Source of the DNA: a virus
Reading direction: 5' to 3' (one strand)
Virus genome (UHGV): UHGV-0268707
DNA length: 20,927 bases
Under the pieces are notes generated by a model that searched no databases, was not told where the DNA came from, and saw only the letters and a list, made by a program, of their open reading frames with translations. Position 1 is the first letter of the stretch. Each line of letters begins with the position of its first letter. Both the position numbers and the translations under genes were made by a program. This document shows, piece after piece, positions 1 through 20,904 of the stretch.

Positions 1-669
1 TACAACGAAGTTGCCCGTAAAAACGCAAAATCAACCCTGTCATCGGGTATTGGTCTGTATATGACGGGGGCAGATGGTGAAGGCGGGGCTGAGGTGTATT
101 CAGCCGCAACCACGCGTGATCAGGCCAGAATCGTGTTTGAAGACGCCAAAAATATGGTCAGAAAAGCCCGGTCGACACTCGGGCGGTTGTTTGACTTCAA
201 CAAGCTGGCGATTTACCAGGAGCAGAGCGCATCAAAATTTGAACCGCTTTCCTCGGATGCAAACAACCTGGACGGTCTGAACATCCACTGCGCCATTATT
301 GATGAGCTGCATGCACATAAAACCCGTGACGTGTGGGACGTTCTGGAAACGGCAACCGGTGCCCGTCTGCAGTCCCTTTTATTTGGTATCACCACGGCAG
401 GGTTTAACAAGGAAGGGATTTGTTACGAGCAGCGTGATTACGCCATCAAGGTATTGCGTGGCTATAACAGCGACGTGGAGGGCGCTGTAAAAGACGACTC
501 TTACTTTGCGATCATTTACACCCTCGATGAGGGAGATGATCCGTTTGATGAAACGGTCTGGCAGAAAGCGAATCCTGGCCTGGGCATCTGTAAACGCTGG
601 GATGATCTGCGTCGTCTGGCGAAAAAAGCGAAGGAGCAGGTCTCTGCGCGGGTGAATTTTTTTACCAAG
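1..669 (+). pseudogene. terL: Prophage terminase large subunit, N-terminal portion (5' partial at window edge; reading frame interrupted by insertion of the element at about 662-669)
   Basis: Frame 1 is open from base 1. Its translation (YNEVARKNAKST...TTRDQARIVFEDAKNM...LFGITTAG...WQKANPGL...ARVNFFTK) aligns colinearly with the intact terminase at 13978..15639 (FIEVPRKNAKST...AVSRDQARIVFDDARQM...LFAITTSG...WIKANPNI...WVEMLTK). Similarity stops at codons FFTK (661..669); downstream the frame runs into AT-rich non-homologous sequence. Confidence 0.8.
659..669. repeat. Putative attL core (tTtTTACCAAg)
   Basis: Sequence TTTTTACCAAG at the exact point where terminase homology ends; it matches ttCTTACCAAa at the right junction, with 7 bp identical (TTACCAA). 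Confidence 0.45.
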
Positions 670-797
670 AAAGTAACATCACGCCGTAACAACAGTGCGA
701 TCTGTCCTGATTTTTTTAGTAACCAAATGAAAGAAAAAGATTTTTTCTTGTTCGTCGTTTTTGTTTTTTCTGGAAGGTTCTGGCTGTTTTCATCATT

Positions 798-821
798 TGT
801 GTATTGCACTGTGTATTGCAA
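798..821. repeat. Tandem 12-bp repeats TGTGTATTGCAC/TGTGTATTGCAA, candidate integrase arm-type or RDF binding sites (left end)
   Basis: Two adjacent copies directly upstream of the int start codon. The same motif recurs at 16061..16084 just inside the right end. Confidence 0.45.
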
Positions 822-839
822 AAACGGGTTATAAATCAC

Positions 840-2063
840 ATGGCGCTAAACAAACTGAGCGATAAAAAACTTCGTTCCCTGCTTGGGCGCAGGAGTGAGA
901 GGCAGGAAACCATCGCTGATGGTAACGGGCTTTCGGTACGGGTCAGTAAATACGGATGTGTTAGTTTTGTTTTCTTTTACAGACTGGCGGGAAGGGGGAC
1001 CGCGCCCATCTGGCTGACACTTGGAAAATATCCTGATCTGAGTCTCAAATCAGCGAGAGAGATGCGCGATCAGTGTCGAACCTGGCTTGCGGAGGGCAGA
1101 GATCCACGGATTCAGATAAAAATTGAACGGGAAGCCACCTTGCAACCTGTTACCGTTCGTGAGGCACTTGAATACTGGCTTGATAATTATGCAATGGATA
1201 AGCGTAGGGGAGCAGAACATATCAGGCAGTGCTTTGGTAAACATATTTATCCGGTGATTGGTCATGTACCACTTAGTGATTGCTCTATATCTATGTGGAT
1301 CAAGTGTTTTGACAAAATAAAAAAAGTAGCACCTGTACAGGCCGGAGCTTTGTTGCGTATATCAAAACAGGCGCTTAAATTTTGTAGGGTAAGAAAATAC
1401 GCGATTAGTCATGAAATTGATGATCTTGAGGTCTGTGATGTGGGAAAAAAGTCTGCGCGAAGAAGCAGGGTTTTAACAGATGATGAAATCAGAGATTTAT
1501 GGCGAAGTATTAATACTGATTATGACAATCACGAATTATCATATGAAAACCGAATTATTTTACGTTTCCTGGTAGTTTTTGGTTGCCGACTGTCAGAAGT
1601 ATTACTGTCGTCCTGGGGAGAGTGGGATTTTGATAAGAAATTATGGCGCGTTCCCGCTGAACATAGCAAAAATGGCAGGGAAATAATCAGACCGATTCCT
1701 GATGGCATGTTTAACTGGTTAGTTACGTTAAAAAAAATAACAGGTAACAAAGAAAATGTGATTGGGTTTGATATGCGTCAGTGTACGGCAAGCGTAACTA
1801 TCGGTAAGACATGGAAAAGGATGAAACACTCGGAGAAATGGACGGCGCATGATATGCGAAGAGTGTTTGCCACAAAACTAAGTGATCATGGTTTTGAACA
1901 TAATGTGGTTGAACAGTTGCTTGGGCACACATTAGGCGGTGTTGCCGGGGTTTATAACAGAAGCCAGTATATGGACAGAAAAAAAGAAGCTATGAACTGG
2001 TGGTACGACTACCTGAATAAGCTAATTAGTGGTGACGGTAATGATTCAAATAGTTACGCGTGA
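840..2063 (+). CDS. int: Tyrosine-type site-specific integrase (P4-like, N-terminal arm-binding domain)
   Basis: Translation starts MALNKLSDKKLRSL...GNGLSVRVSKYG (typical P4-family arm-binding N-terminus). C-terminal catalytic signatures: R in FGCRLSEVL, HDMRRVFATKL (H-x-x-R), and LLGHTLGGVAGVYNRSQY (catalytic Tyr). The ORF-track start at 804 overlaps the arm repeats, so the ATG at 840 is preferred. Confidence 0.9.
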   Translation: MALNKLSDKKLRSLLGRRSERQETIADGNGLSVRVSKYGCVSFVFFYRLAGRGTAPIWLTLGKYPDLSLKSAREMRDQCRTWLAEGRDPRIQIKIEREATLQPVTVREALEYWLDNYAMDKRRGAEHIRQCFGKHIYPVIGHVPLSDCSISMWIKCFDKIKKVAPVQAGALLRISKQALKFCRVRKYAISHEIDDLEVCDVGKKSARRSRVLTDDEIRDLWRSINTDYDNHELSYENRIILRFLVVFGCRLSEVLLSSWGEWDFDKKLWRVPAEHSKNGREIIRPIPDGMFNWLVTLKKITGNKENVIGFDMRQCTASVTIGKTWKRMKHSEKWTAHDMRRVFATKLSDHGFEHNVVEQLLGHTLGGVAGVYNRSQYMDRKKEAMNWWYDYLNKLISGDGNDSNSYA

Positions 2064-2262
2064 AGAACTTGAAAATGATAAAACAATCGACAGGATGATT
2101 AAGGAAGATGAATGTGCATGGTTAACTGCTCTTGGCAGGAGACACAGATCGTTACTTGAAAAGGAAGGAAAATTTCCACGAAAAATATGTATTGGCCCAC
2201 AAACAAAAGTCTGGCGCTTATCTGAGGTGCTGGAATGGGTAAAGGGTGAATGGAAAACCTGA
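2041..2262 (+). CDS. AlpA-family (excisionase-like) HTH regulator
   Basis: Small ORF overlapping the int 3' end; motif ECAWLTALGRRHRSLLEKEGKFPRKICIGPQTKVWRLSEVLEWV fits the AlpA/Xis HTH pattern (HTH followed by FP...W...EV..W). Start codon uncertain (GTG 2029 or ATG 2041). Confidence 0.55.
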   Translation: MIQIVTREELENDKTIDRMIKEDECAWLTALGRRHRSLLEKEGKFPRKICIGPQTKVWRLSEVLEWVKGEWKT

Positions 2263-2285
2263 GCTAAAGTAAATGAGATATAATC

Positions 2286-2311
2286 AACCCGTCTTTTGGC
2301 GGGTTTTTTTA
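2286..2311 (+). terminator. Candidate rho-independent terminator
   Basis: AACCCG-tcttttgg-CGGGTT followed by TTTTT. Confidence 0.35.
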
Positions 2312-2325
2312 TAGGTGATATTTTT

Positions 2326-2604
2326 ATGCAAAAATTTATTTATCCTACACCCGAAGAACGCATTCAGATTCTGAAAGAGCATGGCGAACCGTATGATCGC
2401 CGTATACGCGAACATGAGTGTGCCAATCGTACCGGGCTTTCAAGAAGCAGACGTTGGGTACTTGAACAGGAGGGAGCATTTCCTGCTCGTGCTCATTTAG
2501 GGAAAGTGTCTGTTTCCTGGTTGCTCTCTGATGTGCTCTGGTGGGTTATGCATCCGCCAGGAGTAAAGGAAGTAAACAGCCCATACAAAAACGCCAATAA
2601 GTAA
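2326..2604 (+). CDS. AlpA-family HTH transcriptional regulator
   Basis: ANRTGLSRSRRWVLEQEGAFPARAHLGKVSVSWLLSDVLWWV matches the AlpA family signature. ATG at 2326 is preferred over the upstream TTG. Confidence 0.6.
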   Translation: MQKFIYPTPEERIQILKEHGEPYDRRIREHECANRTGLSRSRRWVLEQEGAFPARAHLGKVSVSWLLSDVLWWVMHPPGVKEVNSPYKNANK

Positions 2605-2613
2605 TTACCGACA

Positions 2614-2643
2614 ACCCCGCACCACGCAATGCGGGGTTTTTTG
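2614..2643 (+). terminator. Rho-independent terminator
   Basis: CCCCGCA-ccacgcaa-TGCGGGG stem-loop followed by TTTTTT, directly after the stop at 2604. Confidence 0.6.
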
Positions 2644-2661
2644 TATGTGAGGTAGAAAGCG

Positions 2662-3243
2662 ATGAATAAAAATATTGCCGTGACGGGCAAGGGTGACGCA
2701 CGTCATGTGAAAAAATTCTGTGATATTCGTGATCTGGTCGTTCTGCGCTTTGATGGTGTGAACGTTCGCGTGGTGTATCTGAACGGCGATCCGTGGTTTG
2801 TTGCAAAGGATGTTTGTGCGGCGCTTGAATTATCCAATTCACGCATGGCGTTGCAAGCTCTGGATGATGATGAAAGTAATACCGTAACTTTAACTTACGG
2901 TATTCGCGGAAATCCAAATCATAGCGTCGTTTCTGAATCTGGTTTTTACAAGCTGATTGCCAGAAGTCGCAAAGCTGCTACTCCTAGCACGTTCGCCCAT
3001 CGTTTCAGTAACTGGGTATTCAGAAATGTGATACCGGGTATCAGAAAAACGGGGGCTTATGGTATCCCGTGGGGCGCATTACAGGATTTTTCCCGCCGCA
3101 AAGAGCAATACCAGATAAGTGCCAGCGAGAAGGGGAGGGAGCTACAGGCATGTAAGCGCAAAAAGCGTGAGCTGGAGGAAGAAGAAAAAAGGCTGATACG
3201 TGAATACCAGCCTGAGTTTTACTTTGGTGAGCGTATTCAGTAA
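2662..3243 (+). CDS. Bro-N domain protein (antirepressor-like)
   Basis: N-terminal roughly 130 aa carry Bro-N hallmarks: LRFDGVNVRVVYLNGDPWFVAKDVCAALELSN...LDDDE...SESGFYKLIARSRKAATPSTFAHRFSNWVFRNVIPGIRKTGAY. C-terminus is charged and coiled. Confidence 0.8.
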   Translation: MNKNIAVTGKGDARHVKKFCDIRDLVVLRFDGVNVRVVYLNGDPWFVAKDVCAALELSNSRMALQALDDDESNTVTLTYGIRGNPNHSVVSESGFYKLIARSRKAATPSTFAHRFSNWVFRNVIPGIRKTGAYGIPWGALQDFSRRKEQYQISASEKGRELQACKRKKRELEEEEKRLIREYQPEFYFGERIQ

Positions 3244-3523
3244 CCACACGCGGTGTTGATTATACGGTACATCGTGTTGACCGGGAAGCTACCCACCAGC
3301 AAGGCAAAATCTTCTGCTAAAAAATGACATATGGCCAGTCGTCCGGAAAGCATGAAATTTTACAAAAATGGAAAATGAAGATTTTTATTGTGCTGGTGGG
3401 TAAAAACAAAAAGCGCCCCGTTGCCGGAGCGCCCTTGCGAACAATTAACCTACTGCGCAAAAAATGAATCTGTGCGGGGGGATTATATCAACCGTGGTCG
3501 AAATGACCATAGTTGCAGGATAA

Positions 3524-3556
3524 CAGGCAAAACAAAGGCCACCCGCTACGGTGGCC
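3524..3556 (-). terminator. Candidate rho-independent terminator for the leftward regulator transcripts
   Basis: GGCCACC-cgctac-GGTGGCC hairpin (3537..3556); on the minus strand it is followed by TTTGTTTTGCC. Confidence 0.35.
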
Positions 3557-3659
3557 CCTCGACACAAGCTACACGTTATCCCCAACGCATGAGCATAACC
3601 AACAATGCCACATTTACGGCTGGTGGGCAATGTGATCAGTGTGCTGGCTTGCTGGTGGG

Positions 3660-3857
3660 CTATTCCTGCTCTTTAGCATCGCCATGCTGCGATGTTTTCC
3701 AGGTATGCGATCCCATTTTTGTGCGCTTGTACTCTTTAAGGAACCTCTCAAGGACAAACGCACATGGCGCGAATCTTTCCTGTTCATGTTCGCTTACCGC
3801 GTTTTTGCGTTGTTTTTTCCTAGATGAAGATAATTTCTTTAATGATTTGTCAGTCAT
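3660..3857 (-). CDS. Small basic hypothetical protein (possible paralog of the adjacent regulator)
   Basis: 65-aa lysine-rich ORF whose last four codons (KEQE-stop) and about 12 nt of DNA are shared with the gene at 3915..4094. Weak RBS; function unknown. Confidence 0.35.
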   Translation of the reverse strand: MTDKSLKKLSSSRKKQRKNAVSEHEQERFAPCAFVLERFLKEYKRTKMGSHTWKTSQHGDAKEQE

Positions 3858-3914
3858 CGTAGATACCTGTAACCCAGTTCACCGCAGTTCACCGCACCAC
3901 GGCGCTGGTGACGG

Positions 3915-4094
3915 TTACTCCTGCTCTTTGGCCTTCCGGCGCTGGCGGCGTTTGATCTCACCTTCAAGCGCCGAAACGATAAATTGCCCAGTGCTTTCGC
4001 CTTCTTCCTTTAAATTTTCTACAGCGTCAGCTATTGCATGGGGTACTCGTGCCTCAAGTTTTTTGGATTTTCCATTAACTGCTTTCGTTGCCAT
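3915..4094 (-). CDS. Small ribbon-helix-helix-like DNA-binding protein, candidate repressor of the element
   Basis: 59 aa, MATKAVNGKSKKLEARVPHAIADAVENLKEEGESTGQFIVSALEGEI, consistent with a beta-strand plus two helices (RHH/Arc-like). AAGGA RBS 8 nt upstream of the ATG at 4094; reads away from the operator-containing promoter region. Confidence 0.5.
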   Translation of the reverse strand: MATKAVNGKSKKLEARVPHAIADAVENLKEEGESTGQFIVSALEGEIKRRQRRKAKEQE

Positions 4095-4115
4095 ATCTGA
4101 TTTCCTTGTTATTAG

Positions 4116-4195
4116 GTGGCTGACAGTATACACACAAGAAAATAGAAAAACACTATTGACGTGGCTGACACCTGTTACTAGTATAGTGGCTGACA
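4116..4195. repeat. Three direct copies of GTGGCTGACA (operator-like)
   Basis: Copies at 4116..4125, 4161..4170 and 4186..4195; the second and third extend to GTGGCTGACACCT and bracket the -35/-10 of the rightward promoter. Confidence 0.5.
4156..4184 (+). promoter_or_regulatory. Sigma70-like rightward promoter (TTGACG, 17 nt spacer, TAGTAT) overlapped by operator repeats
   Basis: TTGACG at 4156..4161 and TAGTAT at 4179..4184 with a 17-nt spacer; sits upstream of the small-ORF/primase operon. Confidence 0.45.
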
Positions 4196-4293
4196 CCTTT
4201 ATTGAGGTAATCGATGAAAAGACAAAGCCCGCAGGTGCTACCAACACCAACGGGCTTCTAACCACCAACGATAGCGAAAGTATCGAGGTAGCT

Positions 4294-4497
4294 ATGTTAA
4301 ATCATACCACACACCCGCAAGGGCGGGACTCGCACAACCTGAATAAATACATCTGGCGTTTTATCGCTCTGAGCACGGCACAACCGCGCGTGATTACCAT
4401 TGAGGCCACCAGCGAACAGGAAGCCCGCCAGCAATCCCCGGCTGGCTGCGTGATGATATTCGCCGCCCGTATTCTCCAGGAGGTGCGCCATGATTAA
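4294..4497 (+). CDS. Hypothetical protein (first gene of rightward operon)
   Basis: GAGGT RBS 5-9 nt upstream of ATG 4294; stop overlaps the next start. The 369-aa ORF-track call 3388..4497 in the same frame is rejected. Confidence 0.45.
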   Translation: MLNHTTHPQGRDSHNLNKYIWRFIALSTAQPRVITIEATSEQEARQQSPAGCVMIFAARILQEVRHD

Positions 4498-4705
4498 CCT
4501 GTCACTTACCGACCTTAACCGCATTCAGTTTCGTGAGAAATTCACCGGGCAGTTGCTGGTCAATGTGGATAAAGGTCGCGTGGTGTGTAATTACCACCTG
4601 CCAGATGAAGCCATTGTCGCAACAAGGGAATCATTACAGGAACTCGCAGAACGTGCCGGAATGATTAACGCGAATATTCAGGGGGGGGTGAGACATGTGC
4701 AATAA
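4490..4705 (+). CDS. Hypothetical protein
   Basis: AGGAGG RBS upstream of ATG 4490; start overlaps the preceding stop and its stop overlaps the next start. Confidence 0.55.
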   Translation: MINLSLTDLNRIQFREKFTGQLLVNVDKGRVVCNYHLPDEAIVATRESLQELAERAGMINANIQGGVRHVQ

Positions 4706-4940
4706 CATCCGTCCGGACGCAGCTGCCGAAGCTATCAGAACGCTGATGCACGCGCTGATTGATATTTCATGCACGGTAGCAACCGCAGAAAAACACATTA
4801 CCAGAGAGACGGAATATACAGGGGCGATAATCCCGCATTCGCTGGCTTACGCACAGCTTACCGCTGATATGGCGCTGAATGAGGCTAAAGCCATCCTGAT
4901 TGCTGATTGTGAAAATGGCGGGGGCGATTATGCGAAATAA
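4695..4940 (+). CDS. Hypothetical protein
   Basis: ATG 4695 preceded by a G-rich RBS; overlaps neighbours on both sides. Confidence 0.5.
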   Translation: MCNNIRPDAAAEAIRTLMHALIDISCTVATAEKHITRETEYTGAIIPHSLAYAQLTADMALNEAKAILIADCENGGGDYAK

Positions 4941-5148
4941 ACATGATATTGAAGACCTGGCATTTGAAGCCCTGCACTCTGCGAAAAAAATCAGGGAAGT
5001 CGTCAATATGTGGATGAACAGCCTTAGCACCGATAAATCCGATAGCAGAGAAGAAATTCTTATTTCTTTGTTGTTAGACCTGGCAAATACACAGGTTTCT
5101 CTGACATCTGATATTGAGCTCGCCGCTAAAAAGCTGCCTCTGGAGTAA
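4927..5148 (+). CDS. Hypothetical protein
   Basis: ORF in the operon; start ambiguous (TTG 4900, ATG 4912 or ATG 4927). Confidence 0.45.
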   Translation: MMRNKHDIEDLAFEALHSAKKIREVVNMWMNSLSTDKSDSREEILISLLLDLANTQVSLTSDIELAAKKLPLE

Positions 5149-5154
5149 AAAAAC

Positions 5155-5469
5155 ATGAAAAAGAAAAATTCTGGCTTTACTGCCAGCGGCCTTCCTCGGC
5201 CTGAAATCCGCCCCGGCGATATTTTCCGGGATAAATACGGCAGCACGATAACGATTAAAACCGTCGATGATTTTCGTGTGACCTATATCCGCGAAGGTTA
5301 TGCGCATCCCTGCGTGTCGTCGCATATGCGCTTTGAAAGGGAATTCACCCTGGTAAGCAAAGCACCACCAGCGGACTTAAGCGACATCGACAGAATCATG
5401 CGCGTTACAGGTATGGAACGCATTAAGGCAGTACGTGAAATTATTCGTGAACGGGGAAAGGCAAAATGA
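5155..5469 (+). CDS. Hypothetical protein
   Basis: 104-aa ORF; its stop overlaps the primase start (ATGA). Confidence 0.55.
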   Translation: MKKKNSGFTASGLPRPEIRPGDIFRDKYGSTITIKTVDDFRVTYIREGYAHPCVSSHMRFEREFTLVSKAPPADLSDIDRIMRVTGMERIKAVREIIRERGKAK

Positions 5470-7586
5470 AACTGGCGCCGAACGTAAAACTGTTACCGAA
5501 AGATAAAGGCGAGGATGCAGTGATTTTTGCGGGGGATGACGCATACAGCCACGCAGAGCATTACATGCAGGGCGGAGAAGCCAGAAAGCGCGGCGACAAA
5601 ATACCACCTGTTTATCTCGGACGGCGTGACCTGGGTAATCTGGAAAACCTGCGTATTGTGGATGATGGTCGGTCACGCGCCATCGTCAGACGTGCCGGAA
5701 AACTGGATGACAAACTGGCGCTACAGATTGAAACCCTGCTGGCAGTGGCTGGTGTTAAGGAAGCCTGTTTTTGTGACGAGAACGGCGATTTACTGGAGGA
5801 CTGGACACCACAGCTTGCCCGACTGAAAGACGAATACGAGCGCGGGGAAAGTCTGGTGTTGCCCTTAAAGAAAAAAATCACAGAAAGCCAGGGCGATGAT
5901 GAATTAAAGCCCCGCGTTGAAAGCCGCGCCGATGGTGTTTTCTGGGTAACGCCAAAAGTGGACAAGCAGTCAGGCGAAATTATCCGGCCTGAGACGTGGT
6001 TATGTTCTCCGCTTGAACTACTGGGAACGGGGACGATCGGTAAAGAGCATTACCGCGTGATGCGCTGGAAAAAGCCAGCAAACCATGAAGTCATCACAAT
6101 GGCGATCCCATGTGGTGGCATTGGCGACCGTGACGGCTGGCGGTTGCTGAAAGACCACGGCCTGAACGTGACAACCAACGGCAAATACAGGGCTATCCTG
6201 GCTGACTGGATGCAGTTAAGCGGAAACCATGAGGAATGGCAGTTAAGCACAACAACGGGCTGGCATTTTGGCGCGTACATCATGCCGGACGGTTCGGTCA
6301 TTGGTGATTGCGAAAAGCCAGTCCTGTTTACCGGAAAAACGGCTGCTGTTAATGGTTATTCCGTGGCAGGAACGGCGGAGGGCTGGCGCGATACCGTTGC
6401 GCGGCTGGCTGGTGGTAATCCGTCCATGATGCTGGGTGTGGCGGTATCGTTATCTGCACCATTAATCGGGCTGGTGGGCGCTGACGGCTTCGGGGTACAT
6501 CTTTTCGAACAGTCATCGGCAGGTAAGACCACAACGCAGAACATCGCATCAAGTTTATGGGGAGAGCCGGACGCGCAGCGGCTGACCTGGTACGGCACAG
6601 CGTTAGGTATCGCCAACGAAGCAGAGGCACACAATGACGGGCTTTTACCCCTGGATGAAATAGGCCAGGCCGGAAACGCGCGGGAGGTGTCCACGTCAGC
6701 CTATACGCTGTTTAACGGTTCCGGGAAATTACAGGGGGCAAAGGACGGCGGCAACAGGGAGATAAAACACTGGCGAACGGTGGCAATCAGTACCGGAGAA
6801 ATGGACGTTGAAACATTCCTCAAAACGGAGGGGATAAAAGTCAAGGCGGGGCAGCTTGTCCGTCTGCTTAACGTGCCGATGGAAAAAGCCACGCAGTTTC
6901 ACGAATACAGCACCGGAAAGGCACACGCAGACGCGTTAAAGGATGCCTGGACAGAAAATCACGGGGCGGCGGGGCGTGAGTGGGTTAAATGGCTGGCAGA
7001 CCACCAGCAGGAGGCAAAGGATACGGTAAGGGCATGCCGTGAGCGGTGGCGCAACCTGATACCGGAGAGCTACGGCGAACAGGTTCACCGTGTGGGGGAA
7101 CGATTTGCCATGCTTGAGGCGGCGTTAGTGTTGTCCGGTCATATTACTGGCTGGGATGAGCAGGAATGCCGCGATGCCATACAGCATAATTTTAATGCCT
7201 GGGTGAAGGAGTTCGGCACGGGTAACAGGGAATTTAAACAGATGGTTGAACAGGCAGAAGCTTTTTTAGCGTCGTTCGGATTCAGCAGATACCTTCCGTG
7301 GCCCAATACCGACGAGCGTGATTTACCGATTAAAGAACTTGCCGGATACAGAAAGGGGAGTATCAGAAACGAAGATGACGAGTTCCGTTTTTACACGTTC
7401 CCGCATGTATTTGAGGGTGAGATAGCACAGGGATTTAATCCGTCTCACTTTGCCCGCGCGTTGAGTGCTGCCGGAATGCTGGAAGCGGGTAACGATCGCC
7501 GTTACAAGAAAAAGGCGCTCGGCAAAATTGGGGGGAAGCAGCATGTTTTTTACGTGCTGATGTTCCAGCCTGAGGCAGAAGATTAA
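5466..7586 (+). CDS. Replication initiation primase/helicase-like protein (DUF927-type P-loop NTPase)
   Basis: 706 aa. Central region TTTGWHFGAYIMPDGSVIG...GVHLFEQSSAGKTTTQNIASSLWGEP carries a Walker A-like GKT motif, and GLLPLDEIGQ a Walker B-like hhhhDE. Matches remembered DUF927 primase-helicase proteins of P4-like/PICI elements. Followed immediately by iterons. Confidence 0.75.
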   Translation: MKLAPNVKLLPKDKGEDAVIFAGDDAYSHAEHYMQGGEARKRGDKIPPVYLGRRDLGNLENLRIVDDGRSRAIVRRAGKLDDKLALQIETLLAVAGVKEACFCDENGDLLEDWTPQLARLKDEYERGESLVLPLKKKITESQGDDELKPRVESRADGVFWVTPKVDKQSGEIIRPETWLCSPLELLGTGTIGKEHYRVMRWKKPANHEVITMAIPCGGIGDRDGWRLLKDHGLNVTTNGKYRAILADWMQLSGNHEEWQLSTTTGWHFGAYIMPDGSVIGDCEKPVLFTGKTAAVNGYSVAGTAEGWRDTVARLAGGNPSMMLGVAVSLSAPLIGLVGADGFGVHLFEQSSAGKTTTQNIASSLWGEPDAQRLTWYGTALGIANEAEAHNDGLLPLDEIGQAGNAREVSTSAYTLFNGSGKLQGAKDGGNREIKHWRTVAISTGEMDVETFLKTEGIKVKAGQLVRLLNVPMEKATQFHEYSTGKAHADALKDAWTENHGAAGREWVKWLADHQQEAKDTVRACRERWRNLIPESYGEQVHRVGERFAMLEAALVLSGHITGWDEQECRDAIQHNFNAWVKEFGTGNREFKQMVEQAEAFLASFGFSRYLPWPNTDERDLPIKELAGYRKGSIRNEDDEFRFYTFPHVFEGEIAQGFNPSHFARALSAAGMLEAGNDRRYKKKALGKIGGKQHVFYVLMFQPEAED

Positions 7587-7607
7587 CCCCCTGTGTGAGG
7601 TGAAAAG

Positions 7608-7732
7608 TTGCGGGTTATGCGGGTTATCCTGTGTATAAGTGCATTAACTGTATGAATAAAAAGGAAATCAATAACCCGCACGTAACCCGCAAAACGGCAG
7701 TTATAACCCGCAAAAGTGCGATTATAACCCGC
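7608..7732. repeat. Iteron cluster 1 (putative origin): 2 inverted and 4 direct copies of TAACCCGCA flanking an AT-rich stretch
   Basis: GCGGGTTAT x2 at 7610..7627, AT-rich 7630..7670, then (A/G)TAACCCGCA at 7671, 7682, 7703 and 7723 (spacings 11, 21, 20 bp), immediately downstream of the primase gene. Confidence 0.6.
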
Positions 7733-7796
7733 AGAATTTCACAGTAAGGGTTTAAACAAGCGTAACTATCAACGTTAAAACCGGAGAGCAGAAAGC

Positions 7797-15639: not shown

Positions 15640-15720
15640 CGGAATGGATGAGAGAGGACAATGCTCATTTAATGGAATAAATTTTCAGTATTATCGGCAC
15701 CCACTTTCAGGGATGTTTTT

Positions 15721-15874
15721 GCGGGTTATTTGAGTGGTGTTTGCGGGTTATTTTGAATGTCTTGCGGGTTACATTCTGGCTGATATTTAGATACGTTGTT
15801 TTTTAACGTATTGATATTAAAGAGTAAAAAATACTTAGCACGCGAAGATAACCCGCTAACCCGCATAACCCGCA
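15721..15874. repeat. Iteron cluster 2: 3 inverted copies (GCGGGTTAT/C), an AT-rich spacer and 3 tandem direct copies of TAACCCGC(A), followed by a (TA)6 tract
   Basis: GCGGGTTAT at 15721 and 15743, GCGGGTTAC at 15764 (spacing 21-22 bp); AT-rich 15781..15840; ATAACCCGC-TAACCCGC-ATAACCCGC at 15848..15873; TATATATATATA at about 15884..15895. Same motif as cluster 1. Confidence 0.6.
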
Positions 15875-16049
15875 CTGTTTTGTATATATATATACGAAAA
15901 ATTGCATTCAGGGGGGGATCGAAATTTCTACTGCCTCTTATCTCTTTGAGTGCTCACCTCGTCAGATTGTTACACACAAGAAATAAAAAATGCTTCGCGA
16001 TGGTAGGTCGAATCACTGTATCAAAAAACGGTGTGTATCAGCATTAAAA

Positions 16050-16084
16050 CAATACAGATACGTGTATTGCGCTGTGTATTGCTC
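16050..16084. repeat. TGTATTG-containing repeats near the right end (one inverted copy plus two tandem 12-mers CGTGTATTGCGC/TGTGTATTGCTC)
   Basis: Near-identical to the tandem repeats at 798..821; the palindrome CAATACA-gatacg-TGTATTG lies at 16050..16069. Confidence 0.45.
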
Positions 16085-16153
16085 GATGATTTATAAAGAC
16101 TGTTTTTTCATGTTAAATGATTGATATACAGGTGATTTTAAAAAACTTGAAAT

Positions 16154-16894
16154 ATTCTTACCAAACACATGAATGTGTGGGTAACAGCAGAGTCTGCCTG
16201 GATGGACATGATTAAGTGGGAGAAATGCGAATATATTGCCCCACGACATGAGCTGAAAACGTATCCCATGTGGGTCGGCGTCGACCTTGCTCATAAGATT
16301 GATATCTGTGCGGCGGCAAAACTCTGGCGAACCGATAACGGACATGTTCATGCTGATTTTAAATTCTGGCTCCCGGAAGGACGGCTGGAGCGGTGCTCGC
16401 GGCAGCAGGCAGAACTTTACCGGAAATGGGCGGAGATGGATAAGCTCATCCTGACGGATGGTGATGTTATCGATCATGCTCAGATAAAAAGTGACTTACT
16501 GGAATGGATTGGTGGTGAAAACCTCAGGGAACTGGGATTTGACCCGTGGAGTGCAATGCAGTTCAGTCTGGCGCTGGCTGAAGAAGGTATACCGCTGGTG
16601 GAAGTTCCGCAGACGGTCCGCAATCTGTCAGAGGCCATGAAGGAAACGGAATCACTGGTCTATGCCGGACGTTTCCATCACAGTAATCACCCGGTCATGA
16701 ACTGGATGATGTCTAACGTTACGGTAAAACCGGACAAAAACGACAATATCTTCCCGAATAAATCCACGCCTGAAGCCAAAATCGACGGCCCTGTTGCGAT
16801 GTTTACAGCAATGAGCCGGATGCTGGTCAATGGCGGTGAACCGGAGCCGGATCTGTCTGAACACCTGATCAGTGTTGGTATCCGCTCGCTTTAA
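16154..16894 (+). pseudogene. terL: Prophage terminase large subunit, C-terminal portion (continuation of the gene interrupted at 669)
   Basis: Translation from 16154 (ILTKHMNVWVTAESAW...GVDLAHKIDICAAAKLW...NIFPNKSTPEAKIDGPVAMFTAM) aligns with the C-terminal half of the intact terL at 13978..15639 (MLTKRFNIWCQGATPW...GLDLSSTSDISSVCYAF...NIKPNKKKSSNKIDPSVAALMAF). The join with 1..669 is in frame (VNFFTK then HMNVW). Confidence 0.8.
16155..16165. repeat. Putative attR core (ttCTTACCAAa)
   Basis: TTCTTACCAAA at the point where terminase homology resumes; shares TTACCAA with the left junction. Confidence 0.45.
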
Positions 16895-16905
16895 CCGAGG
16901 TCATT

Positions 16906-17088
16906 ATGTTTCTGATAATTCTCACGCCACTGGTGGGCGTGCTGGGGGCGCTTTTGCTGTCGTATGGCGCATGGCTGATTTATCCCCCGGCAGGTTTTGT
17001 TGTTGCCGGGGTGCTGTGCCTGTGCTGGTCGTGGCTGGTTGCGCGTTATCTCGATCGCGGTCACTGGGGTACCTCCGGAGGTGAGTAA
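16906..17088 (+). CDS. Small membrane protein (two predicted transmembrane segments)
   Basis: 60-aa hydrophobic ORF with GAGGT RBS, between terL and portal. Confidence 0.45.
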
Positions 17089-18329
17089 TGTTTTTCCAGG
17101 GGCTTTTTCAACGTAAAAATAATCCCCCCGTCACAACGCCCGGGATGCTTGCGGAAGAACTTGGGTTGTCATATGACACCTATACCGGAAAGCGGATCAG
17201 CAGTAAGCGGGCCATGCGGCTGACGGCAGTGTATTCCTGCGTCAGGGTGCTGGCAGAGTCTGTTGGTATGCTGCCCTGCAGCCTCTACAAAATCACCGGC
17301 ACCCTGAAAACACGGGCGGTGGATGAACGACTGCATAAGCTGATTTCGGCAAAACCCAATGGCTACATGACGCCGCAGGAATTCTGGGAACTGGTCATTG
17401 TCTGCCTGTGTCTGCAGGGTAATTTTTACGCCTACAAGGTAAAGGCACTGGGGGAAGTGGTGGAGCTTCTCCCGATAGATCCGGGCTGTGTGGAACCGAA
17501 GCTGAACAGCCAGTGGCAGCCGGTTTATCAGGTGACGTTTCCGGATGGTTCCGTGGATGTGTTGACCCAGGATGAAATCTGGCATGTGCGCACCCTGACG
17601 CTGAACGGACTGGTCGGGCTGAATCCCATTGCGTATGCGCGTGAGGCCATTTCACTGGCAGCGGCAACCGAGGAGCACGGCGCCAGGCTGTTTGGTAACG
17701 GCGCTGTGACATCCGGTGTGTTGCGTACGGATCAACAACTTTCTGATCAGGCTTATGCGCGTATCAAAAAGGACTTTGAGGAACGGCATGTCGGGCTGGG
17801 AAATTCTCATCGTCCGATGATTCTGGAAATGGGGCTGGACTGGAAGCCGGTGGCACTGAATGCCGAGGACAGCCAGTTCCTGGAAACCCGCAAGTTTCAG
17901 CTGGAAGAAATCTGTCGTCTTTTCCGCGTGCCACTGCATATGGTGCAGAACACTGACCGCGCCACCTTCAACAATATTGAAGAGCTGGGGCTTGGTTTCA
18001 TTAACTATTCCCTTGTGCCGTATCTGACCCGTATTGAGCAGCGGATCAATACAGGGCTGGTCAGGGAGAGCAAGCAGGGGAAGTTTTACGCCAAATTTAA
18101 TGCCGGAGCATTGTTGCGTGGCGACATGAAATCCCGCTTTGAAGCGTATGCCACGGGGATCAACTGGGGGATTTATTCCCCTAATGACTGCCGTGATCTG
18201 GAGGATATGAATCCCCGACCAGGCGGTGATGTGTATCTGACACCGATGAACATGACCACCAGTCCCTCTGCTGGCGATGACAACGGTAAGAAAAAGGAGA
18301 GTGGAGATGCAGACAAAACAGCGTCTTGA
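17088..18329 (+). CDS. Portal protein, HK97 family (helper prophage)
   Basis: 413-aa ORF with GGAGGTGAG RBS, directly downstream of terL and upstream of protease and capsid genes; colinear distant similarity to the satellite portal. Confidence 0.85.
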   Translation: MFFQGLFQRKNNPPVTTPGMLAEELGLSYDTYTGKRISSKRAMRLTAVYSCVRVLAESVGMLPCSLYKITGTLKTRAVDERLHKLISAKPNGYMTPQEFWELVIVCLCLQGNFYAYKVKALGEVVELLPIDPGCVEPKLNSQWQPVYQVTFPDGSVDVLTQDEIWHVRTLTLNGLVGLNPIAYAREAISLAAATEEHGARLFGNGAVTSGVLRTDQQLSDQAYARIKKDFEERHVGLGNSHRPMILEMGLDWKPVALNAEDSQFLETRKFQLEEICRLFRVPLHMVQNTDRATFNNIEELGLGFINYSLVPYLTRIEQRINTGLVRESKQGKFYAKFNAGALLRGDMKSRFEAYATGINWGIYSPNDCRDLEDMNPRPGGDVYLTPMNMTTSPSAGDDNGKKKESGDADKTAS

Positions 18330-18957
18330 TATACCGCTGAACCTGAAATCCGTCAGTGATTCCGGGGAATTTGAAGGTTACGGTTCTGTTTTTGGTGTTA
18401 AGGACAGCCACGATGATGTGGTGGTCCCCGGAGCCTTTACCACAACACTCCAGAAATGGAGCGAAAAAAAGGCGCTGCCTGCGTTGCTCTGGCAGCACCG
18501 TATGGATGAGCCTATCGGTGTGTACACCGAAATGAAAGAAGATGATGTCGGGCTTTATGTCAGGGGGCGATTACTCGTTGATGATGATCCCCTGGCAAAA
18601 CGTGCACATGCCCATATGAAGGCCGGTTCTTTAACCGGCCTTTCTATTGGCTACATCCTGAAAGACTGGGAGTACGACCGGGAAAAAGGGGTATTCCTGC
18701 TGAAAGAGATCGACCTGTGGGAGGTCAGTCTGGTGACGTTTCCTTCCAATGATGAAGCACGCATCAGCGATGTGAAAAATGCGCTGGCGCGTGGGGAGAT
18801 CCCTGATCAGAAAATTATTGAGCGAGTCCTGCGCGATGTTGGACTCTCGCGAACCCAGGCCAAAGCATTCATGGCCGGGGGATATGGCGCTTTATCCCTG
18901 CGTGATGCTGAGGATGTGGATGCCGCACTGAATGCACTGAAAAATCTTAAATTTTAA
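18307..18957 (+). CDS. Prohead maturation protease, HK97 family (peptidase S78)
   Basis: AAGGAG RBS upstream of ATG 18307. EFEGYGSVFGVKDSHDDVVVPGAFTTTL...LLWQHRMDEPIGV...GLSIGY fits the S78 pattern. Confidence 0.85.
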   Translation: MQTKQRLDIPLNLKSVSDSGEFEGYGSVFGVKDSHDDVVVPGAFTTTLQKWSEKKALPALLWQHRMDEPIGVYTEMKEDDVGLYVRGRLLVDDDPLAKRAHAHMKAGSLTGLSIGYILKDWEYDREKGVFLLKEIDLWEVSLVTFPSNDEARISDVKNALARGEIPDQKIIERVLRDVGLSRTQAKAFMAGGYGALSLRDAEDVDAALNALKNLKF

Positions 18958-18971
18958 CCAGGAGAAAAATA

Positions 18972-20195
18972 ATGGCTGATGTTAAAGATGTGGAACAGGT
19001 CGCGCAGGAGTTGCAGCGGAAGTTTGACGATTTTAAGGAAAAAAACGACAAACGTATCGACGCGATCGAGCAGGAAAAGGGAAAACTTGCCGGAGAAGTG
19101 GAAACCCTCAACGAAAAACTGACTGAACTGGAAAATCTGAAAAGCGATCTTGAAGCTGAACTGGCTGAAGTCAAGCGTCCGGCAGGCGGCACGCAAAATA
19201 AAGTTGCCAGTGAACACAAAGAAGCGTTTATCGGATTTATGCGCAAGGGGCGTGAAGACGGTCTGCGTGAGCTTGAGCGTAAGGCGCTGCAGGTGGGCAA
19301 TGATGAAGATGGTGGTTATGCCATTCCGGAAGAACTGGATCGCACCATTCTTACGCTGCTGAAAGATGAGGTGGTGATGCGCCAGGAAGCCACTGTGATC
19401 ACCCTCGGTGGCTCGGATTATAAAAAACTGGTGAATCTGGGCGGCACAACGTCCGGATGGGTGGGGGAAACGGATGCACGTCCGGAAACCGCCACCTCAA
19501 AACTGGGGCTGATTGAACCCTTTATGGGGGAAATCTACGGCAACCCGCAGGCCACCCAGAAAATGCTCGATGACGCTTTCTTCAATGTGGAAGACTGGAT
19601 CAACAGTGAGCTGGCGCTGGAATTTGCCGAACAGGAAGAAATTGCCTTTACCAGTGGCGACGGCAGCAAAAAACCAAAAGGTTTTCTGGCTTACGAGTCC
19701 ACCGATGAAGATGACAAGACCCGTGCGTTTGGCAAACTTCAGCACATTGCTTCCGGTGCGGCTTCCGGCGTGACTGCCGATGCGATCATTAAACTGATTT
19801 ACACCCTGCGCAAGGCGCACCGCAGCGGCGCGAAGTTTATGATGAACAACAGCAGCCTGTTTGCCATTCGTCTGCTGAAGGATAACGACGGAAATTATCT
19901 GTGGCGTCCGGGTATTGAGCTGGGTCAGCCTTCTTCTCTGGCAGGGTATGGCATCGTTGAAAATGAGCAGATGCCGGATATTGCCGCCGATGCAAAAGCC
20001 ATTGCGTTTGGTAACTTCAAACGCGGCTATACCATTGTTGATCGTATCGGCACCCGCATCCTGCGCGATCCTTACACCAACAAACCGTTTGTGGGCTTTT
20101 ATACCACCAAGCGAACCGGCGGTATGCTGGTGGATTCTCAGGCGATTAAGCTGATGAAAATTGGGGCCGCAACCCGCCAGAAAGCCGCTGCGTAA
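18972..20195 (+). CDS. Major capsid protein, HK97 family (helper prophage)
   Basis: N-terminal coiled-coil delta region, GDGSKKPKGFLAYES and GNFKRGYTIVDRIGTRILRDPYT motifs; strong RBS. Confidence 0.9.
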   Translation: MADVKDVEQVAQELQRKFDDFKEKNDKRIDAIEQEKGKLAGEVETLNEKLTELENLKSDLEAELAEVKRPAGGTQNKVASEHKEAFIGFMRKGREDGLRELERKALQVGNDEDGGYAIPEELDRTILTLLKDEVVMRQEATVITLGGSDYKKLVNLGGTTSGWVGETDARPETATSKLGLIEPFMGEIYGNPQATQKMLDDAFFNVEDWINSELALEFAEQEEIAFTSGDGSKKPKGFLAYESTDEDDKTRAFGKLQHIASGAASGVTADAIIKLIYTLRKAHRSGAKFMMNNSSLFAIRLLKDNDGNYLWRPGIELGQPSSLAGYGIVENEQMPDIAADAKAIAFGNFKRGYTIVDRIGTRILRDPYTNKPFVGFYTTKRTGGMLVDSQAIKLMKIGAATRQKAAA

Positions 20196-20239
20196 TGCGG
20201 TTTTTTATGCCCGCACAGTGTTGCGGGCAGGAGTTTCTG

Positions 20240-20557
20240 ATGGCAGCAATAGTGGAAAAACTCAGGGCGCAGTGCCGTATTGATACAGATGATGCAACTG
20301 ATGATGAGTTACTGATGCTGTATTTCCGGGCTGCCTGCCGCAAGGCAGAAAATTTTATCAACCGTAAGCTTTATGAGGAGACGGTGCCGGAGGGGGATCC
20401 AGAAGGGGTGCTTATAGCTGATGATGTTTTGCTGGCGCTTATGTTGCTGGTCGGGCACTGGTACGAAAACCGGGAAAATTCCTCAGATGTCAGCAAGGCA
20501 CCAATCCCGTTTGGCTTTTCTTCTCTGCTGGAGCCTTATCGTTTTATTCCTTTGTAG
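20240..20557 (+). CDS. Head-tail connector protein (gp6-like)
   Basis: About 105 aa immediately after the capsid gene; pattern LRAQCRIDTDDATDDELLMLYFRAACRKAENFI...VLLALMLLVGHWYENRE typical of gp6-like connectors. GGCAGGAG RBS upstream of ATG 20240. Confidence 0.7.
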   Translation: MAAIVEKLRAQCRIDTDDATDDELLMLYFRAACRKAENFINRKLYEETVPEGDPEGVLIADDVLLALMLLVGHWYENRENSSDVSKAPIPFGFSSLLEPYRFIPL

Positions 20558-20565
20558 GAGGAAGC

Positions 20566-20904
20566 ATGCAGGCGGGCAGATTACGTGATCGCGTAATTAT
20601 TCTGAATGTCACCACCGCCCGCTCTCCGTCAGGGCATCCGGTGGAGACGGTGACGGAGGGAGCTACCGTATGGGCAGAAGTTAAGGGTATCAGCGGGAGG
20701 GAGATAATCTCAGGCGGAGCAGAAACCGCTCAGGCTACGGTCAGAGTCTGGATGAGATTCCGGCGCGATGTGACAGCGACTTCACGTCTGAAAGTGCTGA
20801 CCGGTGCATTTAAAGGGGCCATTCTGGGTATAGAAGGTCCACCAATACCGGATGCACGCGCTACCCGGCTTGAAATACTCTGCAGCCTGAAGGGGAATGT
20901 GTGA
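20566..20904 (+). CDS. Head closure / head-tail adaptor protein
   Basis: 112 aa with AGGAGG RBS; VWAEVKGISGREIISGGAETAQATVRVWMRFRRDVTATSRL fits the phage head-closure (head-tail joining) family pattern and position. Confidence 0.65.
   Translation: MQAGRLRDRVIILNVTTARSPSGHPVETVTEGATVWAEVKGISGREIISGGAETAQATVRVWMRFRRDVTATSRLKVLTGAFKGAILGIEGPPIPDARATRLEILCSLKGNV

What the first reader, a model, noticed from the sequence alone, without database searches (positions are those of the whole stretch)
1..16894. A 15.5 kb satellite-like element is integrated inside the terminase large-subunit gene of an HK97-like prophage
Seen directly: the two terminase fragments (1..669 and 16154..16894) are colinear halves of one terL. 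They join in frame (VNFFTK then HMNVWVTAESAW), each aligning with the matching part of the intact terL at 13978..15639. The 15.5 kb between them starts with a tyrosine integrase and is bounded by TTACCAA (662..668 and 16158..16164). Inference: the element uses a conserved terL segment as its attB. That would guarantee co-residence with a compatible helper and leave the helper's packaging ATPase split while the element is integrated; precise excision would restore it. I do not know of this being a described integration target for capsid-forming satellites, but I cannot search to confirm that.
Basis: partly seen in the sequence, partly recalled or inferred. Interest (0 to 1): 0.9.

Follow-up and report, generated by a model that had tools for sequence, protein, structure and literature searches.

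The report
Known satellite embedded in prophage terminase gene
A 15.5 kb phage satellite carrying its own capsid and DNA-packaging genes sits precisely inside the large-terminase gene of an E. coli prophage, but this arrangement, at this exact site, was already published in 2023 as a "helper-embedded PICI".

Summary
Joining 1..661 to 16158..16894 gives an in-frame TerL. It is 99.6% identical, without gaps, to residues 121-585 of the intact TerL of Escherichia phage vB_EcoM-606R7. The same uninterrupted DNA occurs in 905 of 5,426 complete E. coli genomes. The 15,496 bp insert is bounded by TTACCAA. It starts with a tyrosine integrase plus AlpA and carries Bro, primase/SSB and a full capsid-protease-portal-connector-HNH-terS-terL module. 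It has no tail or lysis genes. The same terL-int junction occurs in 36 complete genomes, inside unrelated helper prophages.

Tommasini, Mageeney and Williams (NAR Genom Bioinform 2023, PMC10111431) described helper-embedded PICIs (HE-PICIs). Their group A:Terminase_1:246 has the att identity "ttaccaa" and 61 listed elements, including five genomes I hit independently, E. coli 042 among them. Their diagnostic doubled motif tgTGTATTGCantgTGTATTGCa is present on both arms here.

Small residual points: this subgroup has the architecture of a capsid-forming PICI, a T6/T7 tract decides whether the terL fragment fuses to int, and there is a second iteron cluster. Novelty: already known. Interest is low.

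The parts
1..668 (+). Helper prophage terL, 5' fragment. The window starts inside the gene. It covers the ATPase domain and the start of the nuclease-domain profile. The ORF then runs 55 unrelated codons into the satellite and stops at 832-834.
662..668 (+). attL core TTACCAA (7 bp identity block)
   Evidence: same block listed in Supp. File 1 of PMC10111431
741..746 (+). T6 homopolymer. It is T7 in E. coli 042, where the terL fragment becomes fused in frame to int.
798..820 (+). Doubled HE-PICI motif tgTGTATTGCactgTGTATTGCa. It starts 133 nt downstream of the att centre.
   Evidence: motif described in PMC10111431
840..2063 (+). Satellite tyrosine integrase (407 aa)
   Evidence: 99.8% nt identity to the ETEC4090 int
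2029..2262 (+). AlpA (excisionase/regulator), followed by a terminator-like hairpin at 2286-2305
2296..2604 (+). Second AlpA-family helix-turn-helix protein, followed by a terminator-like hairpin at 2613-2638
2662..3243 (+). Bro-N domain protein (Bro zone)
3915..4268 (-). ORF containing a YlcI/YnfO family domain
   Evidence: matching annotation in relatives
4219..4497 (+). Icd-like / repressor-like small protein. It forms the last ~90 codons of the long ORF 3388-4497.
5155..5469 (+). DUF4222 protein
5466..7586 (+). Primase/replication protein (DUF927, phrog_1139), intact at 706 aa
7609..7733 (.). Iteron cluster 1 (TGCGGGTTA: 2 forward and 4 inverted copies) just 3' of the primase gene; presumed ori
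7797..8222 (+). SSB
8226..8519 (+). PerC-family transcriptional activator
8850..9356 (-). Variable cargo ORF (168 aa) on the reverse strand in low-GC DNA, function unknown. Present in 042, absent from ETEC4090 and from the chromosomal sibling.
9643..10788 (+). Satellite major capsid protein (HK97 family)
10622..11398 (+). Satellite prohead protease (Peptidase_S78). ORF limits are given; the true start is probably near 10840.
11310..12614 (+). Satellite portal protein. ORF limits are given; the true start is probably near 11400.
12544..12909 (+). Satellite head-tail connector (gp6-like)
12909..13349 (+). Satellite HNH endonuclease
13497..13994 (+). Satellite small terminase (Terminase_4 / P27 family)
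13978..15639 (+). Satellite large terminase, intact at 553 aa and 31% identical to the helper TerL. It has TCACCAA (6 of 7 matches to the att core) at 14900-14906, the position homologous to the att core.
15720..15874 (.). Iteron cluster 2 (the same TGCGGGTTA 9-mer: 3 forward and 2-3 inverted copies), followed by an AT-rich run
16061..16083 (+). Second copy of the doubled HE-PICI motif (cgTGTATTGCgctgTGTATTGCt). It ends 78 nt upstream of the att centre.
16158..16164 (+). attR core TTACCAA
16158..16894 (+). Helper terL 3' fragment (rest of the nuclease domain)
17088..20904 (+). Helper head module: portal 17088-18329, S78 protease 18277-18957, HK97-type capsid 18972-20195, connector 20195-20557, head completion protein 20566-20904

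Best explanation
The insert (669-16164, 15,496 bp) is a helper-embedded phage-inducible chromosomal island (HE-PICI) of the published site group A:Terminase_1:246. Its tyrosine integrase recombines a TTACCAA core in attP with the same 7 bp inside the large-terminase gene of HK97-type cos prophages. The satellite lies co-oriented within the helper's late operon and splits TerL after residue ~342 of 585.

Shown here: the precise, in-frame, gapless interruption; the recurrence of the same junction in unrelated helpers; the diagnostic arm motifs; and an intact int-alpA / Bro / primase-SSB / capsid-to-terL gene set without tail or lysis genes.

Inferred: after helper induction, antiterminated late transcription reads from HNH-terS-terL(N) straight into int and alpA, because no terminator lies between them. 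Int and AlpA then excise the satellite, which restores the helper terL late. The satellite replicates from its own iteron origin. Like a capsid-forming PICI, it builds its own small capsids and packages itself with its own HNH/TerS/TerL, taking only tails, lysis and the induction signal from the helper. While integrated, it blocks helper packaging in cis.
For: - In-frame join and 7 bp direct repeat.
- The reconstructed TerL is 99.6% identical and gapless to an intact phage TerL, with identical junction DNA.
- 905 complete E. coli genomes and 11 phage records carry the empty site.
- 36 genomes carry the terL-int junction, and the same number carry this int at 95% identity or more.
- The helpers differ: lambdoid in 042 and a sheath-tailed prophage with a different early region in ETEC4090.
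- Supp. File 1 of PMC10111431 lists 61 A_Terminase_1_246 HE-PICIs, most with att identity 'ttaccaa'. They include FN554766 (042), CP016546, CP015229, CP027447 and AGTD01000001, which are my hits H55, H47, H64, H71 and H65. The published attL and attR sequences match the window.
- The doubled motif occurs twice, against 0 expected, at +133 and about -78 to -88 from the att centre; the paper gives 132 +/- 2 and 81 +/- 2. It is absent from a chromosomal sibling that has another integrase.
- The order capsid-protease-portal-connector-hnh-terS-terL matches proteobacterial cf-PICIs.
- No terminator-like site lies between 669 and 840.
- Excision of a sister HE-PICI that restored its target after helper replication was measured by qPCR and deep sequencing.
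- A cf-PICI still produced particles with a helper terL mutant.
Against: - No experiment exists for this terL group. Excision, timing, small-capsid formation and tail piracy are all inferred by analogy.
- The authors of the HE-PICI paper could not recover virions even for their model element.
- Some composites are decaying: the helper integrase is frameshifted in 042 and the satellite primase is frameshifted in ETEC4090. Some copies may therefore be stranded.
- The window does not show the helper's left half or its tail genes, so the helper's integrity here is unknown.
- The upstream motif distance agrees with the published 81 +/- 2 only to within a few bp, depending on the reference point used.
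Confidence: 0.85

Rival explanations
1. The element is a stranded, domesticated insertion. It integrated site-specifically in the past but no longer excises, so the composite is a dead prophage with a permanently split terL.
For: Relatives show decay: the helper integrase is frameshifted in 042 and the satellite primase is frameshifted in ETEC4090. PMC10111431 notes that many HE-PICI helpers look truncated.
Against: In this window int, alpA, the primase and all eight head and packaging genes are full length. Both att cores and both arm motifs are intact. The junction recurs in unrelated helpers, which implies recent activity.
Confidence: 0.1
2. The insertion does not inactivate the helper terminase. 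The two TerL fragments would be made as separate ATPase and nuclease polypeptides that still work together.
For: An ATG lies at 16169, directly after the junction. PGAP names the 3' fragment 'terminase TerL endonuclease subunit'.
Against: The break lies about 60 residues inside the TerL_nuclease profile, not at the domain boundary: the ATPase profile ends at residue 148 of the partial protein, the nuclease profile starts at 163, and the junction is at 223. No Shine-Dalgarno-like sequence or promoter precedes 16169. PGAP flags both pieces as incomplete pseudogenes.
Confidence: 0.03
3. The pattern is a rearrangement or assembly artefact: two prophages fused by recombination between their terL genes, or a chimeric contig.
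For: Two terL genes and two HK97-type head modules lie within 20 kb.
Against: The two TerL proteins are only 31% identical. The boundaries are a 7 bp repeat next to an integrase with arm motifs. The same structure is found in 36 complete genomes.
Confidence: 0.01

Closest known systems
HE-PICI group A:Terminase_1:246 (Tommasini, Mageeney & Williams 2023, NAR Genom Bioinform 5:lqad036; e.g. Eco33.15.A_Terminase_1_246 in E. coli 042)
   Same: Same target gene and codon, same 7 bp att identity (ttaccaa), same doubled TGTATTGC arm motif, same orientation in the late operon and same four-zone organisation. Window positions 1-3640 are 95.9% identical in DNA, and 5148-16836 are 93.4% identical, to the 042 element.
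   Different: Nothing of substance. This is another allele: a different Bro-zone segment at 3640-4228, T6 instead of T7 before int, and a helper head module like that of ETEC4090 rather than 042.
Capsid-forming PICIs (cf-PICI; EcCIEDL933; Alqurainy et al. 2023 Cell Host Microbe; bioRxiv 10.1101/2022.09.08.507074)
   Same: About 15 kb; int-alpA-primase plus capsid, protease, portal, connector, hnh, terS and terL in the same order; no tail or lysis genes. The helper belongs to the HNH-dependent HK97-type cos phages. A chromosomal sibling between cspD/yljB and clpS is 91-92% identical across the replication and late zones.
   Different: cf-PICIs were defined as using chromosomal att sites never occupied by prophages, and EcCIEDL933 does not interfere with its helper. 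This element sits inside the helper and disrupts its terL. In the searchable papers the HE-PICI paper does not call these elements capsid-forming, and no paper links the two concepts.
HE-PICI 11capE in the lambda-E-type capsid gene of prophage 50icd (E. coli NRG857c)
   Same: Same integrase clade and the same embedded strategy. It is the only member with induction data: the composite excises and replicates first, and the satellite excises later.
   Different: The target gene differs (capsid, not terminase). 11capE lacks terS and is presumed to use the helper's cos machinery, whereas this element has its own HNH/TerS/TerL.
Regulated gene integrity / excision-restored genes (e.g. the skin element in sigK, comK prophages)
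   Same: A gene is interrupted by an integrative element without a replacement sequence and is restored by precise excision.
   Different: The interrupted gene belongs to another mobile element, and the regulation would benefit the inserted satellite rather than the cell (argued in PMC10111431).

Membership tests
HE-PICI, group A:Terminase_1:246 | Integrated inside a prophage late gene (the cognate of lambda A) and co-oriented with it | tested here: met
   terL fragments flank the element. int, alpA, the primase and the late genes are all on the + strand, like terL. Prophage context is seen.
HE-PICI, group A:Terminase_1:246 | att identity block 'ttaccaa' at the ...NFFTK|HMNVW... position of TerL | tested here: met
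   the published attL and attR sequences and att identity are.
HE-PICI, group A:Terminase_1:246 | Doubled motif tgTGTATTGCantgTGTATTGCa, two co-oriented copies about 81 bp upstream and about 132 bp downstream of the attP centre | tested here: met
   Copies at 16061-16083 and 798-820. The downstream offset is 133. The upstream offset is 78 to the motif end or 88 to its centre. Two matches against 0 expected. The motif is absent from a non-HE sibling.
HE-PICI, group A:Terminase_1:246 | No replacement sequence in attP, so the target gene is disrupted | tested here: met
   After FFTK the ORF reads 55 unrelated codons and stops at 832-834.
HE-PICI, group A:Terminase_1:246 | Integrase belongs to the HE-PICI clade | tested here: met
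   Shown by near identity only: the int region is 95.9% identical in DNA to the listed member Eco33 (042) and 99.8% to the element in ETEC4090. No tree was built.
HE-PICI, group A:Terminase_1:246 | Four ordered zones: Integration, Bro, Replication, Late | tested here: met
HE-PICI, group A:Terminase_1:246 | Satellite excision after helper induction restores the late gene | not testable with these tools
   Shown only for 11capE in PMC10111431.
cf-PICI (capsid-forming PICI) | Size 10-18 kb with integrase, regulation and replication modules | tested here: met
   15,496 bp; int, alpA, DUF927 primase, SSB. Criteria are quoted.
cf-PICI (capsid-forming PICI) | [quoted passage not shown] | tested here: met
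   All were found in the canonical order. Only one connector-type gene was recognised.
cf-PICI (capsid-forming PICI) | No lysis genes and no complete tail module | tested here: met
   No such Pfam or PHROG hits among the element's ORFs.
cf-PICI (capsid-forming PICI) | Chromosomal attachment site never occupied by prophages | tested here: not met
   The attB lies inside a prophage gene. The criterion is quoted.
cf-PICI (capsid-forming PICI) | Makes its own small capsids and takes only tails from the helper | not testable with these tools
   Needs EM and transfer assays.

The most novel reading that the evidence does not exclude
The terL-embedded HE-PICIs are functional capsid-forming PICIs. Classical cf-PICIs are reported not to interfere with their helpers. 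This lineage would gain interference in cis by splitting the helper packaging ATPase, a gene it does not need because it carries its own TerL. Its int expression would be tied to helper terL translation: the terL fragment ORF stops 5 nt before the int ATG here and is fused in frame to int in the T7 variant. In the papers I could search, the HE-PICI paper does not describe these elements as capsid-forming and the cf-PICI papers do not mention prophage-embedded sites.
Probability: 0.4. Interest if true: 0.4.

Novelty: already known. Interest (0 to 1): 0.2.

Why it matters
The arrangement is a good example of parasite-within-parasite genetics. A satellite secures co-residence with a helper, delays the helper's packaging and rides the helper's late transcription. 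The concept, the site and dozens of instances are already in the literature, so this window adds one more intact allele. The modest added value is the link to capsid-forming PICIs. An element that carries its own terminase and disrupts the helper's terminase would make a good experimental system for asking how embedded satellites balance helper survival against their own spread.

Tried and rejected
- An Rfam scan at gathering thresholds found nothing, so there are no C4/isrK-type immunity RNAs of the kind reported in some PICI Bro zones. There are no tRNA genes.
- PADLOC gave no defence-system hit for the cargo ORF 8850-9356(-) or the other unassigned ORFs. A PDB sequence search for that ORF gave only noise, with E >= 0.08.
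- I searched the phage collection with the whole element, hoping to find a packaged or excised copy with an attP junction. Only relatives at about 75% identity turned up, e.g. the 16.5 kb 'vB_KppS-Ant'.
- I considered that the element might be EcCIO42 of Fillol-Salom et al. 2018. I rejected this because that PICI is described as lacking terS.
- I considered that the split falls at the ATPase/nuclease domain boundary and leaves two functional subunits. I rejected this because the junction lies about 60 residues inside the nuclease profile.
- I tried to re-derive the wider integrase clade by distant blastn. Relatives outside the group are too diverged in DNA (15-23% coverage), so this told me nothing beyond the 36 close copies.
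- I did not run the large protein-database searches or structure prediction, because the published match settled the question.
Full report
**1. Checking the observation**

The window opens inside a terminase large-subunit gene. Frame 1 reads ...KKAKEQVSARVNFFTK up to position 669. It then continues through 55 unrelated codons to a stop at 832-834. From 16158 the matching frame reads (T)KHMNVWVTAESAW... to a stop at 16892-16894. TTACCAA lies at 662-668 and again at 16158-16164. The bases on either side of it differ between the two ends, so the identity block is exactly 7 bp.

Joining 1..661 to 16158..16894 gives 1398 nt in frame. The reconstructed 465 residues carry TerL_ATPase and TerL_nuclease domains. 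They align colinearly, at 31% identity, with the intact 553 aa TerL encoded inside the insert at 13978-15639.

The decisive test is comparison with uninterrupted genes:
- A 600 nt reconstructed junction matches as one ungapped piece at 95-98% in 905 of 5,426 complete E. coli genomes. It also matches 11 phage records.
- The reconstructed protein is 99.6% identical, with no gaps, to residues 121-585 of the 585 aa TerL of Escherichia phage vB_EcoM-606R7.
- That phage's DNA reads GGGTGAATTTTTTTACCAAACACATGAATGTGTGG across the join.

No genome showed the split without an insert. The window is colinear with complete genomes, so it is not an assembly chimera.

**2. What the insert is**

The insert is 15,496 bp (669-16164). 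Pfam, PHROGs and NCBIfam give the following genes:
- **Integration:** a tyrosine integrase with an arm-binding domain (840-2063), AlpA (2029-2262) and a second AlpA-family protein.
- **Bro zone:** a Bro-N protein, a reverse-strand YlcI/YnfO gene and an Icd-like protein.
- **Replication:** DUF4222, a DUF927 primase (5466-7586), SSB and PerC.
- **Cargo:** a reverse-strand, low-GC ORF of unknown function (8850-9356).
- **Late zone, in order:** HK97-type major capsid protein, S78 prohead protease, portal, gp6-like connector, HNH endonuclease, P27-family small terminase and large terminase.

There are no tail or lysis genes. The satellite's head and packaging proteins are only 26-35% identical to the helper's, so they are not a recent duplication.

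Downstream of the restored terL lie the helper's portal, protease, HK97-type capsid, connector and head-completion genes.

**3. Recurrence and specificity**

The terL-int junction is present in 36 complete E. coli genomes. Full-length copies of this integrase gene at 95% identity or more are also found in exactly 36. In this collection, therefore, the integrase is not seen anywhere else.

The surrounding prophages differ. In E. coli 042 the helper is a lambdoid prophage with Q, RusA and lambda-type lysis genes. In ETEC4090 it has a different integrase and early region and a tail-sheath gene. Both share the HNH-terS-terL block. The window's helper head genes match ETEC4090 at 97.5% and do not align with those of 042. 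This pattern indicates repeated site-specific insertion into a conserved terL segment carried by mosaic helpers.

**4. It is already described**

Tommasini, Mageeney and Williams (NAR Genom Bioinform 2023; PMC10111431) reported helper-embedded PICIs (HE-PICIs). They found 491 satellites at 14 sites in cognates of nine lambda late genes, all with integrases from one clade.

- **Site group.** One group is named A:Terminase_1:246. Their Supplementary File 1 lists 61 such elements by my count, most with att identity 'ttaccaa'. The list includes FN554766 (E. coli 042), CP016546, CP015229, CP027447 and AGTD01000001, which are five of my independent hits.
- **Attachment sites.** Their attL and attR alignments reproduce the window's junction sequences.
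- **Arm motif.** They define a doubled motif, tgTGTATTGCantgTGTATTGCa, unique to HE-PICIs and placed 81 +/- 2 bp upstream and 132 +/- 2 bp downstream of the attP centre. The window has it at 16061-16083 and 798-820, two matches against 0 expected. The downstream offset is 133. The upstream offset is 78-88, depending on the reference point.
- **Control.** The motif is present in the 042 and ETEC4090 elements but absent from a chromosomal sibling that has another integrase.

The window's element is 94-96% identical in DNA to the listed 042 element over most of its length. On every testable criterion it belongs to this published group.

**5. How it most likely works**

- **Shown here:** the anatomy, the intact gene set and co-orientation with the helper late operon. 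No terminator-like site lies between the terL fragment and int.
- **Taken from the literature on a sister element (11capE):** after mitomycin C the whole composite excises and replicates. The satellite then excises precisely and restores the interrupted late gene.
- **Inferred for this element:** helper late transcription, antiterminated by Q, reads through HNH-terS-terL(N) into int and alpA and triggers excision. The helper terminase becomes available only afterwards. The satellite replicates from its iteron origin.

The gene order capsid-protease-portal-connector-hnh-terS-terL is the one described for proteobacterial capsid-forming PICIs. Those parasitise HNH-dependent HK97-type cos phages and need only tails from them. 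The satellite therefore probably packages itself in its own capsids with its own terminase.

A chromosomal sibling between cspD/yljB and clpS supports modular exchange of the integration module on a cf-PICI chassis. It is 91-92% identical across the replication and late zones but has a different integrase.

The satellite's own terL has TCACCAA, a 6 of 7 match to the att core, at the homologous position, within diverged flanks.

**6. Rival explanations**

- **A stranded, non-excising remnant.** This is possible for some copies: the helper int is frameshifted in 042 and the satellite primase is frameshifted in ETEC4090. The window's copy is intact.
- **A functional two-piece terminase.** This is unlikely. 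The break lies about 60 residues inside the nuclease profile, and no ribosome-binding site precedes the ATG at 16169.
- **Recombination between two prophages, or a chimeric assembly.** This is excluded.

**7. Novelty and score**

Three things do not appear in the papers I could search:
- an explicit statement that this terL-embedded group has full cf-PICI architecture;
- the T6/T7 tract that decides between a stop 5 nt before int and an in-frame TerL(N)-Int fusion;
- the second iteron cluster.

These are increments on a known system. Novelty: already known. Interest: 0.2.

Noticed in passing
window 7609-7733 and 15720-15874: The same 9-mer iteron, TGCGGGTTA, occurs 11 times against 0.26 expected, in two clusters. 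One lies just 3' of the primase gene, the usual PICI ori position. The other lies between the satellite terL stop and attR, next to an AT-rich run. Both clusters are conserved in the 042 and ETEC4090 elements and in a chromosomal sibling cf-PICI. The role of the second cluster is unknown; it could be a second origin, a Rep-binding regulatory site or part of cos.
   Followed up: partly
window 741-746 (T6); L001 about 20442-20448 (T7): A homopolymer length difference sets the reading frame. In the window and in ETEC4090 the truncated terL ORF stops at 832-834, 5 nt before the int ATG at 840, which could allow translational coupling. In E. coli 042 one extra T fuses the terL N-fragment in frame to int, giving an 807-codon ORF. 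The HE-PICI paper flags many such cases only as 'reannotate terminase/int fusion'.
   Followed up: partly
window 16836-20229 versus L001 and L003: The helper is mosaic. The terL target is conserved, but the portal, protease and capsid genes downstream match ETEC4090 (97.5%) and do not align with E. coli 042. The ETEC4090 helper has a tail-sheath gene and a different early region, while the 042 helper is lambdoid. The same satellite therefore sits in helpers with different tail types.
   Followed up: partly
L002 4571-18400 (E. coli strain 2824, between cspD/yljB and clpS): A chromosomal sibling cf-PICI shares the replication and late zones at 91-92% identity. It has an unrelated integrase and regulatory left end and lacks the doubled TGTATTGC motif. 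The integration module has evidently been swapped on a common chassis.
   Followed up: partly
window 8830-9409 (ORF 8850-9356, minus strand): A 168 aa reverse-strand ORF lies in a low-GC (about 39%) segment between the replication and late zones. It is present here and in 042 but absent from ETEC4090 and from the chromosomal sibling. It matches phrog_5789 (function unknown) and has no Pfam, NCBIfam or PADLOC match and no significant PDB match (only noise, E >= 0.08). It looks like a variable cargo slot.
   Followed up: partly
window 14900-14906: The satellite's own terL has TCACCAA at the position homologous to the att core TTACCAA, a 6 of 7 match. Other members of the published group use cores such as tcacgaa or tcacaaa. 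Diverged flanks rather than the core itself may be what prevents self-insertion.
   Followed up: no
window 3388-4497: The 369-codon plus-strand ORF is probably not one gene. Only its last ~90 codons match a family (Icd-like / phrog_6196). A YlcI/YnfO gene lies on the opposite strand at about 3915-4094, GC skew turns negative here, and the segment 3640-4228 differs between relatives, as expected for the variable Bro zone.
   Followed up: partly
L001 1-17 and L003 25111-26398: There are signs of decay in related composites. The helper integrase is frameshifted in E. coli 042 and the satellite primase is frameshifted in ETEC4090, so not all embedded copies are likely to be mobile.
   Followed up: no
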